A stretch of 64,000 nucleotides of DNA from a virus, in UHGV virus genome UHGV-0348865; one strand, written 5' to 3'. This document shows positions 45,079 to 45,944 of this stretch, piece after piece (position 1 is the stretch's first letter; each line of letters starts with the position of its first letter). The notes under the pieces are model-generated. The model did not search any database, was not told the origin of the DNA, and saw nothing but the letters and a program-made list of their open reading frames with translations. The translations under genes and the position numbers were made by a program.

Positions 45079-45507
45079 TTGAAGATAGAGTTAGAATACC
45101 CCTTCGTCAATGACTGGCGATTGGGTTACTTAAGAACAAGTAGAGATGGTAGGAAGCGTGTTGATTTGTACAACTCCGACACGGAAAGGACAACCATTTC
45201 TTACGCAAGATATTTAATGTCTTGTTATGTGGGTAGATACTTAACTTCAGAGGAAGAGGTTGATCATATTGATCAGGACTCAACCAATGATGAGATTTCC
45301 AACTTACAGATTCTAAGTATCAGTGAACATTTAGAGAAGACATTAAAACATAGGGTTAAGGGTGCAGTATCAATCTTGACTTGTGCCAACTGTGGTGTAC
45401 TTTTCGAACGGAGAGAAAATAAAATACACAAAAAGAATCAGAATTATTTTTGTAGCAGATCTTGCAACGGTAAGTATTACTGGAGCAATGGTTTCAATAA
45501 CAAATGA
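45079..45507 (+). CDS. HNH endonuclease (homing-endonuclease-like)
   Basis: HNH core EVDHIDQDSTNDEISNLQIL plus a C-terminal Cys cluster (CANCG ... CSRSC); immediately 5' of the tRNA-like element. Confidence 0.6.
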   Translation: MKIELEYPFVNDWRLGYLRTSRDGRKRVDLYNSDTERTTISYARYLMSCYVGRYLTSEEEVDHIDQDSTNDEISNLQILSISEHLEKTLKHRVKGAVSILTCANCGVLFERRENKIHKKNQNYFCSRSCNGKYYWSNGFNNK

Positions 45508-45518
45508 GAGTTCTTAAT

Positions 45519-45597
45519 GGGGGTGTACCTCACCCGTCTTCTAAACGGGCGTTAATCGAGTAATTGGAGTATGCAGGTTCGAGTCCTGTCTCCCCCT
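45519..45597 (+). ncRNA. tRNA-like element (non-canonical; anticodon-like hairpin with UCU plus T-arm)
   Basis: Hairpin CCCGT-CTTCTAA-ACGGG (7-nt loop, U33/A37-like positions, UCU centre); T-arm GCAGG-TTCGAGT-CCTGT; GGGGG...CCCCC closing helix. Spacing does not fit a standard cloverleaf. Confidence 0.3.
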
Positions 45598-45620
45598 CTA
45601 AGAACTCTTGGAGAATGTTT

Positions 45621-45944
45621 ATGTTTAAAAAAGTATTATTACTATGTACTCTCTCACTAAGCCCTCTGGTTATGTCAGCTGATTTGAATTTCCTAGATGG
45701 GTCTTCCTCTTATTTAAAAAGAGAGAGAGGTTTGGTTAACAGTAGAACTCCTGATGAGGGATATTTTGTTGGATATACAACCTCCACTACACGAAATATT
45801 GCTAATTGTAGCTCATCGGGAACCTTAAACAAAGTTGTGTGGGAGGTTGTTGCTTTATACATTGAACAGCATCCTGAGAGACGTCATCTAAGCAATGATG
45901 ATCTTATCATAGAGGCTGTAAACAACGCTTGGTGTAATAAATAA
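45621..45944 (+). CDS. secreted protein with cleavable signal peptide
   Basis: Start at the ATG after GGAGA; signal peptide MFKKVLLLCTLSLSPLVMSA followed by a polar mature domain. Confidence 0.55.
   Translation: MFKKVLLLCTLSLSPLVMSADLNFLDGSSSYLKRERGLVNSRTPDEGYFVGYTTSTTRNIANCSSSGTLNKVVWEVVALYIEQHPERRHLSNDDLIIEAVNNAWCNK

What the first reader, a model, noticed from the sequence alone, without database searches (positions are those of the whole stretch)
45519..45597. Non-canonical tRNA-like element with UCU anticodon-type hairpin next to an HNH endonuclease gene
Seen in sequence: a 5-bp stem with 7-nt loop CU-UCU-AA (U at loop position 2, A at position 6, as in anticodon loops) and a T-arm with GGTTCGAGTCC, closed by a G5/C5 helix. 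The arm spacing does not fit a standard cloverleaf: there is no clear D-arm and about 22 nt lie between the anticodon-like stem and the T-arm. Inference: a degenerate or unusual tRNA-Arg(UCU)-like gene, a tRNA pseudogene left by HNH-mediated rearrangement, or a tRNA-mimic decoy.
Basis: partly seen in the sequence, partly recalled or inferred. Interest (0 to 1): 0.55.

Follow-up and report, generated by a model that had tools for sequence, protein, structure and literature searches.

The report
Rewired arginine tRNA of phages
The flagged 79-base element is a real, strongly conserved gene from a widespread, apparently undescribed family of phage arginine tRNAs whose D-arm is replaced by a different, covariation-proven fold; if it works in translation, it would be the first natural non-cloverleaf tRNA used by a bacterial translation system.

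Summary
Window 45519-45597 (+) has a 7-bp acceptor stem, an anticodon arm with loop CUUCUAA (anticodon UCU), a canonical T-arm and no D-arm. Rfam's tRNA model just passes its threshold; ARAGORN finds nothing.

It is not a pseudogene. The same element occurs in about 270 sequenced phages (Kuravirus, Felix O1-like, phi92-like, jumbo, Klebsiella, Serratia, Streptomyces and Rhodococcus phages) and in many viral metagenome contigs, usually inside tRNA clusters and mostly with an encoded CCA.

In 73 distinct sequences all helices covary. A new 3-bp helix (45529-45531 with 45558-45560) pairs in 73/73, using ten different complementary triplets. It stacks under the anticodon stem.

The following near-invariant strand, UAA(N)UGGAGUAU, copies the D-loop of canonical tRNA-Arg, including the A after GG that corresponds to A20, the main ArgRS identity element.

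Every anticodon seen on this scaffold (UCU, CCU, UCG, ACG) is arginine. No canonical tRNA-Arg(UCU) co-occurs with it. A sister phage has a canonical tRNA-Arg(UCU) in the same slot. AGA makes up 19% of this phage's Arg codons.

Best reading: a functional tRNA-Arg(UCU) with a rewired core. Charging and decoding are inferred, not shown. I found no prior description.

The parts
45519..45525 (+). Acceptor stem, 5' strand (GGGGGUG); pairs with 45590-45596, with a U-U mismatch at 45524/45591
   Evidence: All 7 pairs show double-sided changes; 98.6% of cells are paired in 73 sequences.
45526..45528 (+). Connector U8-A9-C10. U8 and A9 are invariant in the family; position 10 is U in 72/73 and C only in this window.
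   Evidence: Column composition.
45529..45531 (+). 5' strand (CUC) of the new 3-bp helix that extends the anticodon stem; pairs with 45558-45560
   Evidence: 73/73 paired at each of the 3 pairs; ten different complementary triplets; 0/500 shuffles reach the observed value; slid controls 15-43% paired.
45532..45532 (+). Single unpaired A between the new helix and the anticodon stem (equivalent to position 26)
   Evidence: Column 14 is A48/C20/U5. It pairs with column 39 in only 17/73.
45533..45549 (+). Anticodon arm: stem CCCGU/ACGGG, loop CUUCUAA, anticodon UCU at 45540-45542
   Evidence: All 5 pairs covary. Anticodons across the family are UCU, CCU, UCG and ACG only.
45550..45557 (+). 8-nt linker CGUUAAUC (family consensus C-R-U-U-A-A-N-N) on the 3' side of the anticodon stem; unpaired
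   Evidence: Column composition. It is shortened to 3 nt in the divergent relative L057:2689-2766, so its full length is not essential.
45558..45560 (+). 3' strand (GAG) of the new 3-bp helix
45561..45572 (+). D-loop-like strand UAAUUGGAGUAU. It contains AA(N)UGGA = A14 A15 N16 U17 G18 G19 A20 of canonical tRNA-Arg D-loops.
   Evidence: Near-invariant in the family (partly forced by the search patterns). Canonical phage tRNA-Arg D-loops read AA(N)UGGA, with A after GG in 14/14, against 1/29 non-Arg tRNAs.
45573..45589 (+). T-arm: stem GCAGG/CCUGU, loop UUCGAGU (canonical T54-Psi55-C56-R57-A58 pattern)
45590..45597 (+). Acceptor stem 3' strand (CUCCCCC) plus discriminator U at 45597. No encoded CCA (CUA follows).
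45505..45516 (+). 5' arm of the leader/trailer helix (UGAGAGUUCUUA); overlaps the HNH stop codon
   Evidence: 12 bp (2 of them G-U) with 45599-45610. Compensatory change in TH42 (GCUCUUA/UAAGAGC). A helix of 12-15 bp is present in 12 of 27 CCA-less members and in none of 46 CCA-encoding members.
45599..45610 (+). 3' arm of the leader/trailer helix (UAAGAACUCUUG); abuts the GGAG ribosome-binding site of the next ORF
   Evidence: TH42 shares only this module, 45505-45609.
45079..45507 (+). Neighbouring HNH-type endonuclease ORF (context, not part of the RNA)
   Evidence: Pfam HNH_3 E 3.9e-5. N-terminal part homologous to the Bas91 'homing endonuclease'.

Best explanation
Window 45519-45597 is a functional gene for a structurally non-canonical tRNA-Arg(UCU). 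It belongs to a phage-specific family.

Fold (shown by covariation):
- a normal 7-bp acceptor stem;
- a normal 5-bp/7-nt T-arm;
- a normal anticodon arm;
- no D-arm;
- a 3-bp helix between three nucleotides after U8-A9-N10 and three nucleotides located 8 nt downstream of the anticodon stem. This helix continues the anticodon stem.

Inferred tertiary structure: the 12-nt strand that follows, UAA(N)UGGAGUAU, has the sequence of a tRNA-Arg D-loop. It supplies G18/G19 equivalents to dock on the T-loop and an A20 equivalent for ArgRS. The D-stem strands and the D-loop are therefore present but connected in a different order: D-3'-strand, position 26, anticodon arm, linker, D-5'-strand, D-loop. This would keep an L-shape of normal length.

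Inferred mechanism:
1. The RNA is transcribed within the early/middle operon between the HNH gene and the next ORF.
2. It is excised. The 12-bp leader/trailer helix plus the acceptor stem forms a roughly 21-bp duplex that would suit RNase III, with RNase P cutting at the 5' end.
3. It is trimmed at the 3' end and receives CCA from the host CCA-adding enzyme.
4. It is charged by host ArgRS through C35, U36 and the A20 equivalent.
5. It reads AGA (and probably AGG) codons, which the phage uses about five times more often than E. coli does.
For: Conservation:
- About 270 GenBank phages from unrelated groups and hosts, plus IMG/VR contigs.
- 73 distinct sequences.

Structure:
- Acceptor, anticodon and T stems are 94-99% paired, with many double-sided changes.
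- The new helix 11-13:40-42 is paired in 219/219 cells, against 73.7 +/- 1.8% in shuffles and 15-43% when slid.
- That helix shows 45 double-sided changes and ten complementary triplets.
- It is the only window of the alignment that pairs in 73/73; the next best pairs in 43/73.
- The rival pairings show no compensatory change.

tRNA hallmarks:
- Rfam tRNA score above the gathering threshold.
- CCA encoded exactly one nucleotide after the acceptor stem in 46/73.
- Location inside tRNA clusters on the same strand as the other tRNAs.
- Canonical T-loop and anticodon loop with U33 and A37.

Arginine identity:
- The anticodons on this scaffold are UCU, CCU, UCG and ACG only, even though two of the search patterns left the anticodon free.
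- The AA(N)UGGA motif equals the D-loop of canonical phage tRNA-Arg. A follows GG in 14/14 Arg and 1/29 non-Arg tRNAs.
- A20, C35 and U/G36 are the E. coli ArgRS determinants (PMC9976931).

Functional slot:
- In 60 loci with 394 ARAGORN calls, 15 canonical tRNA-Arg genes (ACG, CCG, UCG, GCG, CCU) co-occur with the element, but no canonical UCU.
- Sister Kuraviruses (Bas91, CHD5UKE1, 4E8) have a canonical tRNA-Arg(UCU) at the same place after the same HNH gene.

Demand:
- AGA is 10.1 per 1000 codons and 19.4% of Arg codons in the window.

Feasibility:
- E. coli EF-Tu, the ribosome and an aaRS accept an engineered D-armless tRNA (PMC11551756).
Against: - There is no expression, processing, aminoacylation or decoding data for any member. 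Everything after 'conserved structured RNA with tRNA features' is inference.
- The window copy is slightly deviant: a U-U mismatch in the acceptor stem, C instead of U at position 10 (unique among 73), discriminator U (3/73) and no CCA.
- The 3-bp helix is not predicted by RNAalifold or by single-sequence folding. It rests on covariation only.
- The proposed tertiary contacts (GG to the T-loop, the A20 equivalent, the Levitt-like A-U) involve invariant positions and cannot be tested by covariation.
- Invariance of the D-loop-like strand in alignment A2 is partly imposed by my search patterns.
- No reason for replacing a working cloverleaf is established.
Confidence: 0.7

Rival explanations
1. 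A tRNA-Arg mimic that is not used in translation. It would be a decoy or sponge that titrates a host factor recognising tRNA-Arg (an anticodon nuclease, a toxin, a modification enzyme or ArgRS itself) and so protects or manipulates the real tRNA-Arg pool.
For: A perfect tRNA-Arg(UCU) anticodon loop on a body that standard tRNA recognisers may treat differently. The element is phage-specific: it is absent from 5,426 complete E. coli genomes, and only 4 MAG contigs among 185,579 species genomes hold it. Phage tRNAs are known counter-measures to tRNA-targeting defences (own knowledge; context).
Against: A decoy for one nuclease has no need to track all four arginine anticodon types. It also has no need to keep an encoded CCA, a canonical EF-Tu-binding acceptor/T domain and the ArgRS A20 signature. 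Nor would it need to be the only UCU-bearing species in otherwise near-complete tRNA sets. A canonical tRNA-Arg(UCU) occupies the same slot in sister phages.
Confidence: 0.12
2. A cis-acting tRNA-like processing or punctuation signal in the polycistronic mRNA. RNase P and RNase III would cut at the tRNA-like fold and its flanking helix to separate or stabilise the HNH and downstream cistrons, and the released RNA would have no function of its own.
For: In the window and in 11 other CCA-less members, the element is embedded between protein genes and flanked by a 12-15 bp leader/trailer helix that covaries. The 3' arm abuts the ribosome-binding site of the next ORF. TH42 shares exactly the 105-bp module that includes the helix.
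Against: The same RNA, at 85-90% identity, sits inside ordinary tRNA arrays with an encoded CCA and no flanking helix in most phages. A punctuation signal would not need a conserved Arg anticodon loop or an Arg-type D-loop motif.
Confidence: 0.05
3. A recoding or mischarged tRNA. Because the core is abnormal, another synthetase charges it (as SerRS or LeuRS do for long-variable-arm tRNAs), so AGA/AGG would be read as a different amino acid during infection.
For: A long insert lies where class II tRNAs have their variable arm. The only natural precedent for a D-armless tRNA with a UCU anticodon is mitochondrial tRNA-Ser(UCU), which reassigns AGA (PMC7609411; PMC4615739 abstract).
Against: The insert does not form a variable-arm hairpin: there is no compensatory change, and 7-25 unpaired cells per pair. 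The scaffold is also used with ACG and UCG anticodons of the CGN box. It keeps the Arg-specific A after GG. These phages, including Felix O1 and phi92 relatives, have ordinary coding sequences with AGA at normal arginine frequency.
Confidence: 0.04
4. A decaying tRNA pseudogene or rearrangement scar produced by the adjacent HNH homing endonuclease.
For: ARAGORN finds nothing. There is no D-arm. The neighbouring HNH ORF is mosaic relative to Bas91. The window copy has a U-U mismatch and lacks CCA.
Against: Compensatory changes maintain all four helices in 73 distinct sequences from very different phages and hosts. The window copy scores 97.8 bits on the family model, inside the 80-102 bit range, whereas canonical tRNAs score 34.5 or less. 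Most members are not next to an HNH gene.
Confidence: 0.02

Closest known systems
Canonical bacterial and phage tRNA-Arg(UCU), e.g. the Bas91 gene at L001:1956-2031 and E. coli argU
   Same: Same anticodon loop CUUCUAA, 7-bp acceptor stem, 5-bp T-stem with a UUCGAAU/UUCGAGU loop, U8-A9, and the D-loop motif AA(N)UGGA with A after GG. Same genomic slot in sister Kuraviruses.
   Different: No D hairpin. The D-loop-like strand lies 3' of the anticodon arm instead of 5' of it, and a 3-bp helix forms across the anticodon arm. The canonical gene scores only 22.8 bits on the family model, against 97.8 for the window copy.
D-armless mitochondrial tRNA-Ser(GCU/UCU) of animals
   Same: No D-arm. The 'D-replacement' nucleotides pair with nucleotides 3' of the anticodon stem to give an extended anticodon stem (PMC9427863). 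Some members carry anticodon UCU (PMC7609411).
   Different: The mitochondrial tRNA has lost the tertiary core and has a remodelled T-loop. It needs co-evolved mitochondrial factors and carries serine identity. The phage family keeps a canonical T-loop and a GG-A D-loop-like strand, carries only Arg anticodons, and must work with unmodified bacterial cytosolic machinery.
Engineered D-armless 'mini HisT' in E. coli (Edelmann et al. 2024, PMC11551756)
   Same: [quoted passage not shown] This shows such a fold can work in this host.
   Different: It is artificial, a simple deletion, and is limited by PNPase degradation. That paper states that all known bacterial tRNAs are canonical. The phage family is natural, widespread, and retains a D-loop equivalent.
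Other non-canonical tRNAs of bacteria and phages: (8/4) and (9/3) tRNAs and allo-tRNAs (Mukai et al. 2017, PMC5389517)
   Same: Found by searching metagenomes. Some sit in phage tRNA clusters and deviate from the 7/5 cloverleaf.
   Different: Those keep a D-arm and vary the acceptor/T-stem lengths and the variable arm. The present family keeps the 7/5 arrangement and rewires the D region.
CCA-less phage T4 tRNA precursors, matured by host RNase BN and the CCA-adding enzyme (own knowledge, not checked here)
   Same: The window copy and 26 other members lack an encoded CCA and would need the same host pathway.
   Different: T4 precursors are canonical cloverleaves. A long leader/trailer helix that continues the acceptor stem is not a known feature of them.

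Membership tests
tRNA (Rfam RF00005, canonical cloverleaf) | Score at or above the Rfam gathering threshold | tested here: met
   33.2 bits against 29, E 0.0041, 45519-45597. The result is borderline: of three other family members, only one reaches the threshold.
tRNA (Rfam RF00005, canonical cloverleaf) | 7-bp acceptor stem, 5-bp anticodon stem with a 7-nt loop (U33, purine 37), and 5-bp T-stem with a TTCRA loop, all maintained by covariation | tested here: met
   98.6%, 94.2% and 98.9% of cells are paired. 15 of 17 pairs have double-sided changes.
tRNA (Rfam RF00005, canonical cloverleaf) | D-arm: a 3-4 bp stem closing an 8-11 nt loop between positions 10 and 25, 5' of the anticodon arm | tested here: not met
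   Only 7 nt lie between the acceptor and anticodon stems. The Rfam alignment deletes the D-arm. ARAGORN fails in default mode.
tRNA (Rfam RF00005, canonical cloverleaf) | 3' CCA, encoded or added, one nucleotide after the acceptor stem | tested here: inconclusive
   Encoded in 46/73 family members but not in the window copy, where CUA follows discriminator U. Post-transcriptional addition is not testable here.
tRNA (Rfam RF00005, canonical cloverleaf) | Aminoacylation and use on the ribosome | not testable with these tools
   No expression or biochemical data are available.
Bacterial tRNA-Arg identity set (ArgRS substrates) | C35 and U36 or G36 in the anticodon | tested here: met
   Anticodon UCU in the window. 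UCU, CCU, UCG and ACG across the family, all with C35 and U/G36. Determinants from PMC9976931.
Bacterial tRNA-Arg identity set (ArgRS substrates) | A20 in the D-loop, the main determinant for E. coli ArgRS | tested here: inconclusive
   The motif AA(N)UGGA with A after GG is present at 45562-45568. It matches canonical phage tRNA-Arg D-loops (14/14) and differs from non-Arg tRNAs (1/29). Whether this A occupies the position-20 pocket in three dimensions is unknown.
Bacterial tRNA-Arg identity set (ArgRS substrates) | Discriminator A73 or G73 | tested here: inconclusive
   The family has G 38, A 31, U 3 and C 1. The window copy has U. The identity table in PMC9976931 also lists U73 for bacteria.
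Class II tRNA (long variable arm) | The extra nucleotides between the anticodon stem and the T-stem form a variable-arm stem-loop | tested here: not met
   The candidate hairpin 38-40:47-49 has no compensatory change, and 17, 25 and 7 unpaired cells per pair.
D-armless mitochondrial tRNA-Ser | D-replacement nucleotides incorporated into an extended anticodon stem | tested here: met
   The helix 11-13:40-42 is paired in 73/73. Precedent in PMC9427863.
D-armless mitochondrial tRNA-Ser | Loss of the D-loop/T-loop tertiary core, degenerate T-loop, organellar origin | tested here: not met
   The T-loop is canonical and a GG-containing D-loop-like strand is conserved. The genomes are tailed phages of bacteria.
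tRNA pseudogene or fragment | No selective maintenance of structure; lineage-restricted decay | tested here: not met
   Compensatory changes in all helices across unrelated phages. The family-model score of the window copy is typical.
Permuted tRNA genes (Cyanidioschyzon type) | The 3' half is encoded upstream of the 5' half, so the gene's ends do not form the acceptor stem | tested here: not met
   The acceptor stem is formed by the two ends of the gene. The rearrangement is internal to the D/anticodon domain.

The most novel reading that the evidence does not exclude
The rewired core is an adaptation in a host-phage conflict over tRNA. By presenting the ArgRS determinants (C35, U36 and an A20 equivalent) on a body that lacks the canonical D-arm, the phage would own an AGA/AGG decoder that escapes a tRNA-targeting nuclease or modification enzyme, host- or phage-encoded, that recognises normal tRNA-Arg architecture. 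Phage translation would then continue when canonical tRNA-Arg(UCU) is inactivated. This would make it the first natural non-cloverleaf tRNA working on bacterial ribosomes, and a ready-made structurally orthogonal tRNA scaffold.
Probability: 0.25. Interest if true: 0.92.

Novelty: new variant of a known kind. Interest (0 to 1): 0.8.

Why it matters
Textbooks and recent literature hold that all bacterial-system tRNAs are cloverleaves. PMC11551756 says so explicitly, and natural D-armless tRNAs are known only from animal mitochondria with co-evolved factors.

Here a differently wired tRNA is carried by hundreds of well-known, easily grown E. coli, Salmonella and Klebsiella phages: Felix O1 relatives, phi92 relatives and the BASEL phages Bas93 and Bas94. 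These phages depend on unmodified host ArgRS, EF-Tu and ribosomes.

If the RNA is charged and decodes, several things follow:
- The tRNA core could be topologically rearranged while keeping function.
- We would learn which core features ArgRS and the ribosome really need.
- Synthetic biology would gain a natural, structurally distinct tRNA scaffold.
- Every tool needed to ask why phages carry their own tRNAs is already available for these phages.

There is also a practical point. ARAGORN misses the gene. Records label it 'tRNA-OTHER', 'tRNA-Undet' or 'tRNA-Val(aac)', or leave it unannotated, and CDS features are sometimes drawn over it. Phage tRNA repertoires and AGA-decoding capacity are therefore systematically under-counted.

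Tried and rejected
1. Variable-arm hairpin YCG/YGG (columns 38-40 with 47-49), as implied by the Rfam alignment. Rejected: no compensatory change, and 7-25 unpaired sequences per pair.

2. A 6-bp helix UAUCUC/GGAGUA (columns 8-13 with 48-53). Rejected: pair 11:50 is unpaired in 72/73. The outer three pairs (8-10 with 51-53) are invariant, so they can be neither supported nor excluded.

3. An alternative cloverleaf that takes the UCU hairpin as the D-arm and GUUAAC as an anticodon loop. This is the reading behind GenBank's 'tRNA-Val(aac)' for phage Yaboi. Rejected: it ignores the covarying 3-bp helix, and the UCU/CCU/UCG/ACG loop behaves as the anticodon.

4. Thermodynamic folding of the window copy and RNAalifold. 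These recover only the three long helices. The single-sequence z-score for the 79-mer is not significant (-0.49). The 116-nt version with flanks gives z = -2.2.

5. ARAGORN relaxed, intron and mitochondrial modes. They give only forced, inconsistent models.

6. An intron or excision that would restore a cloverleaf. No contiguous deletion can do this, because the D-loop-like strand lies 3' of the anticodon arm.

7. Prophage or chromosomal origin. There is no match in 5,426 complete E. coli genomes. Only 4 of 97 pattern hits in 185,579 species genomes are true members, and all four are MAG contigs.

8. Literature. Eight full-text searches, including the conserved sequence itself, and six papers read gave no description of this family. 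Subscription-only and older literature, such as the 1980s work on phage T5 tRNAs, could not be searched.

9. HNH linkage as the cause. HNH genes flank the element in three unrelated phage groups, but most members have none next to them. I treat this as the usual habit of homing endonucleases of settling in tRNA clusters, possibly helping horizontal spread.
Full report
**1. What is in the window**

The window is part of a phiEco32-like (Kuravirus) E. coli phage. At 45519-45597 on the + strand the sequence reads:

GGGGGUG UAC CUC A CCCGU CUUCUAA ACGGG CGUUAAUC GAG UAAUUGGAGUAU GCAGG UUCGAGU CCUGU CUCCCCC U.

The Rfam tRNA model matches exactly these coordinates at 33.2 bits (gathering score 29). 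Its alignment deletes the D-arm and inserts about 20 nt in the variable region. ARAGORN finds no tRNA anywhere in the 64 kb. With relaxed or mitochondrial settings it produces only forced, mutually inconsistent models. One 95-nt model uses the flanking helix as its acceptor stem, and another lies on the opposite strand.

The element lies in a 113-nt gap between two ORFs:
- Upstream is an HNH-type ORF, 45079-45507 (Pfam HNH_3, E 3.9e-5).
- Downstream is an ORF starting at 45621.

The element is flanked by a 12-bp inverted repeat, 45505-45516 with 45599-45610, that prolongs the acceptor stem across a 2x2 internal loop.

**2. It belongs to a large, conserved family**

Sensitive blastn against 50,697 phage records finds the 79-mer in 272 records, and 259 of them cover at least 80% of it at 80-93% identity. 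The carriers are unrelated phages:
- some Kuraviruses;
- Felixounavirus;
- phi92-like Justusliebigvirus;
- roughly 350-kb jumbo phages;
- Klebsiella phages of two kinds;
- Erwinia and Serratia phages;
- more distantly, Streptomyces phage Yaboi and Rhodococcus phage Trina.

In Felix-like and phi92-like phages the element lies inside the tRNA array, on the same strand as the other tRNAs. Annotations are 'tRNA-OTHER', 'tRNA-Undet', 'tRNA', 'tRNA-Val(aac)' or nothing, and protein features are sometimes drawn across it.

Pattern scans of IMG/VR added dozens of environmental viral contigs. In one genome per 185,579 prokaryotic species, only four true copies turned up, all on MAG contigs. None of 5,426 complete E. 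coli genomes has it. It is therefore essentially phage-specific.

After removing duplicates and one false positive, I aligned 73 distinct sequences without difficulty (82 columns, one single-nucleotide indel).

**3. Secondary structure**

On this alignment the acceptor, anticodon and T stems are paired in 98.6%, 94.2% and 98.9% of cells. Fifteen of their 17 pairs have double-sided (compensatory) changes. RNAalifold predicts the same three helices on its own.

I tested three models for the centre:
- **Model B**, a small variable-arm hairpin (columns 38-40 with 47-49), has no compensatory change and 17, 25 and 7 unpaired sequences per pair.
- **Model C**, UAUCUC with GGAGUA (columns 8-13 with 48-53), fails at 11:50, which is unpaired in 72/73.
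- **Model A** pairs the three nucleotides after U8-A9-N10 (columns 11-13; window 45529-45531) with the three nucleotides just before UAA(N)UGGAGUAU (columns 40-42; window 45558-45560).

Model A is paired in 73/73 sequences at each position. Its double-sided changes number 1, 30 and 14, and pair 12:41 occurs as U-A, G-C, A-U and C-G.

Taken alone, this helix gives these results:
- 100% of cells are paired, against 73.7 +/- 1.8% in 500 shuffles (0/500 reach it).
- When the partner is slid by 1-3 columns, 15-43% are paired.
- There are 45 double-sided changes, against 9.4 in shuffles.

Ten different triplets occur (CUC, CGC, CAU, CAG, CAC, CUU, UCC, CGG, CGU, CCC), each with its exact complement. 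An exhaustive scan shows that column 40 is the only register that pairs in all 73; the next best pairs in 43.

Energy-based methods do not predict the helix. That is expected for 3 bp closed across a 1x8 internal loop, so the evidence for it is comparative only. A fourth pair, 14:39, forms in only 17/73.

**4. The strand after the helix looks like a tRNA-Arg D-loop**

Columns 43-54 read UAA(N)UGGAGUAU. Their invariance in A2 is partly imposed by my patterns. However, a scan that left this region free returned the same motif. The only variant seen there was U47 to C, in L060 and L068. Two divergent relatives found with the covariance model read UAAUUGGAAUGAU and UAAUUGGAUAGAACAU.

The D-loops of 16 canonical tRNA-Arg genes from the same phage loci read AA(N)UGGAUAG. 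A follows the GG in all 14 that have a GG. Among 29 non-Arg tRNAs from the same loci, that nucleotide is A only once and U 21 times.

The motif therefore corresponds to A14-A15-(N16)-U17-G18-G19-A20. Even the one-nucleotide length variation falls at the position where D-loops vary. A20 is the main determinant for E. coli ArgRS, together with C35 and U/G36 (PMC9976931).

My reading, which is inference, is that the parts of the D-arm are all present but connected in a different order:
- Acceptor 5' strand, then U8-A9-N10.
- One strand of a D-stem-like helix.
- One nucleotide equivalent to position 26.
- The anticodon arm, followed by an 8-nt linker.
- The other strand of the helix.
- The D-loop-like strand, followed by four more nucleotides.
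- The T-arm.

Three base pairs plus the junction, stacked on five anticodon-stem pairs, come close to the normal length of the anticodon/D limb. The GG could still dock on the canonical T-loop.

The closest structural precedent is human mitochondrial tRNA-Ser(GCU). [quoted passage not shown] The phage RNA seems to have kept the core.

**5. Arginine only, and it fills the UCU slot**

The anticodon loops in the 73 sequences are:

| Loop | Count |
|---|---|
| CUUCUAA | 59 |
| CUUCUAC | 6 |
| UUUCUAC | 3 |
| UUUCUAA | 1 |
| UUCCUAA | 2 |
| CUUCGAA | 1 |
| CUACGAA | 1 |

The anticodons are therefore UCU, CCU, UCG and ACG. The two divergent relatives carry ACG and UCU. Two of the collecting patterns did not constrain the anticodon.

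A covariance model built with the proven structure (R1) separates three groups in 824 kb of phage DNA:
- Family members score 80-102 bits; the window copy scores 97.8. Two copies cut off by contig ends score 66.5 and 73.9.
- The two relatives score 56-60 bits.
- All canonical tRNAs score 34.5 bits or less. The Bas91 canonical tRNA-Arg(UCU) scores 22.8.

No member with a non-Arg anticodon appeared.

ARAGORN on 60 family-bearing loci called 394 tRNAs. They include 15 canonical tRNA-Arg genes (ACG x9, UCG x3, CCG, GCG, CCU). None is a canonical tRNA-Arg(UCU): the four 'tct' calls are 91-98-nt mis-calls lying on the element or on its relative.

Within Kuravirus, Bas91, CHD5UKE1 and 4E8 have a canonical tRNA-Arg(UCU) directly after the homologous HNH gene. 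The window, 1-6af, 1-6bf, FH3, TH42, HC-25922, Bas93 and Bas94 have the rewired one.

In 46 long ORFs of the window, AGA is 10.1 per 1000 codons and 19.4% of Arg codons. In E. coli it is roughly 2 per 1000 (own knowledge).

**6. Two gene types**

Forty-six of 73 members encode CCA one nucleotide after the acceptor stem, and none of these has more than 5 bp of leader/trailer complementarity. Twenty-seven lack CCA, and 12 of these, including the window, have a 12-15 bp leader/trailer helix continuous or nearly continuous with the acceptor stem.

The helix differs in sequence between lineages and shows a compensatory change between the window and TH42. TH42 shares with the window only the 105-bp module 45505-45609, that is the tRNA plus the helix, in otherwise unrelated surroundings.

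I infer that, in the stand-alone type, the roughly 21-bp composite duplex serves to excise the RNA from the mRNA. RNase III is the obvious candidate, with RNase P, 3' trimming and CCA addition to follow, as for CCA-less T4 tRNAs (own knowledge). None of this is shown.

**7. Verdict on function**

Shown:
- a conserved structured RNA with an acceptor/T domain, anticodon arm and anticodon loop indistinguishable from a tRNA-Arg;
- a new helix replacing the D hairpin;
- an Arg-type D-loop motif;
- exclusive use of Arg anticodons;
- genomic behaviour as the UCU isoacceptor of phage tRNA sets.

Inferred:
- charging by host ArgRS and decoding of AGA/AGG.

That E. coli's EF-Tu, ribosome and at least one synthetase tolerate a D-armless tRNA has been shown experimentally for an engineered molecule (PMC11551756).

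I put about 0.7 on 'functional decoding tRNA-Arg'. The rest is split among a non-translating mimic or decoy, a processing signal, a mischarged or recoding tRNA, and, for this particular copy only, decay. The window copy has a U-U mismatch, a unique C10, discriminator U and no CCA.

Why phages would maintain a rewired core is unknown. Evasion of a tRNA-directed defence or of a phage nuclease is attractive but untested.

**8. Novelty**

The searches and reading that found no description of this family are listed under 'tried and rejected', item 8. A 2020 review of non-canonical tRNAs does not mention phages or viruses at all. A 2024 paper states that all known bacterial tRNAs are canonical. Subscription and older literature could not be searched, so prior mention cannot be excluded.

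I classify the element as a new structural variant of a known kind (tRNA), not a new kind of element.

Noticed in passing
window 45621-45944 (+): The ORF immediately downstream of the element matches Pfam Rap1a (a type VI secretion immunity protein; 28.5 bits against a cut-off of 27.7). It starts with a signal- or lipobox-like MFKKVLLLCTLSLSPLVMSA. The gene is absent from sister phages 1-6af and Bas91, so it is a recent insertion next to the tRNA module.
   Followed up: partly
window 45079-45507 (+): The HNH ORF is mosaic. Its first roughly 80 codons are 86% identical in DNA to the Bas91 'homing endonuclease', while the C-terminal part is unrelated. HNH genes also flank the element in a Felix-like phage (L003:2596-2943) and in Serratia phage Kamaji (L072:1584-2147). 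They may help the module spread horizontally.
   Followed up: partly
L093:4166-4256(-), L046:6269-6364, L026:1612-1702, L076:7758-7845: Unusually long (88-96 nt) tRNA genes with anticodon UAU (Ile). They have a normal D-arm plus a long variable arm whose stem covaries (for example CCCUA/UAGGG). This is class II architecture on an Ile anticodon in phage tRNA clusters. One lies directly beside the rewired tRNA-Arg.
   Followed up: partly
L005:928-997 and 2598-2672; L028:5383-5457; L036:262-337; L057:1770-1845: ARAGORN 'tRNA-???' calls with two-nucleotide anticodons. These suggest further odd tRNAs with shortened anticodon loops in the same phage clusters.
   Followed up: no
L101:6424-6703: A tmRNA gene (tag peptide ANSMNASAFALAA) on a viral contig that also carries 12 tRNAs and the rewired tRNA-Arg.
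   Followed up: no
Alignment A2, columns 15 and 31 (window 45533/45549): In 21 of 73 family members the outermost anticodon-stem pair is a mismatch, mostly C-U, which leaves a 4-bp anticodon stem. A 2026 paper links 4-bp anticodon stems to expanded wobble (PMC13092985). The relevance here is unknown.
   Followed up: no
L046:13348-13429 and L057:2689-2766: Two divergent relatives of the family, scoring 56-60 bits on model R1. One has only a 3-nt linker and anticodon ACG. The other has a longer D-loop-like strand (UAAUUGGAUAGAACAU), anticodon UCU and an imperfect 3-bp helix. The architecture therefore has sub-variants beyond the 73 aligned sequences.
   Followed up: partly
GenBank records MG065639, MG065645, MG065656, MG065689 ('Campylobacter phage') and OK283618 ('Listeria phage LPML1'): These records match the element as phi92-like or Felix-like E. 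coli phages do (146-kb and 87-kb genomes, same identities). Their host labels therefore look doubtful.
   Followed up: no
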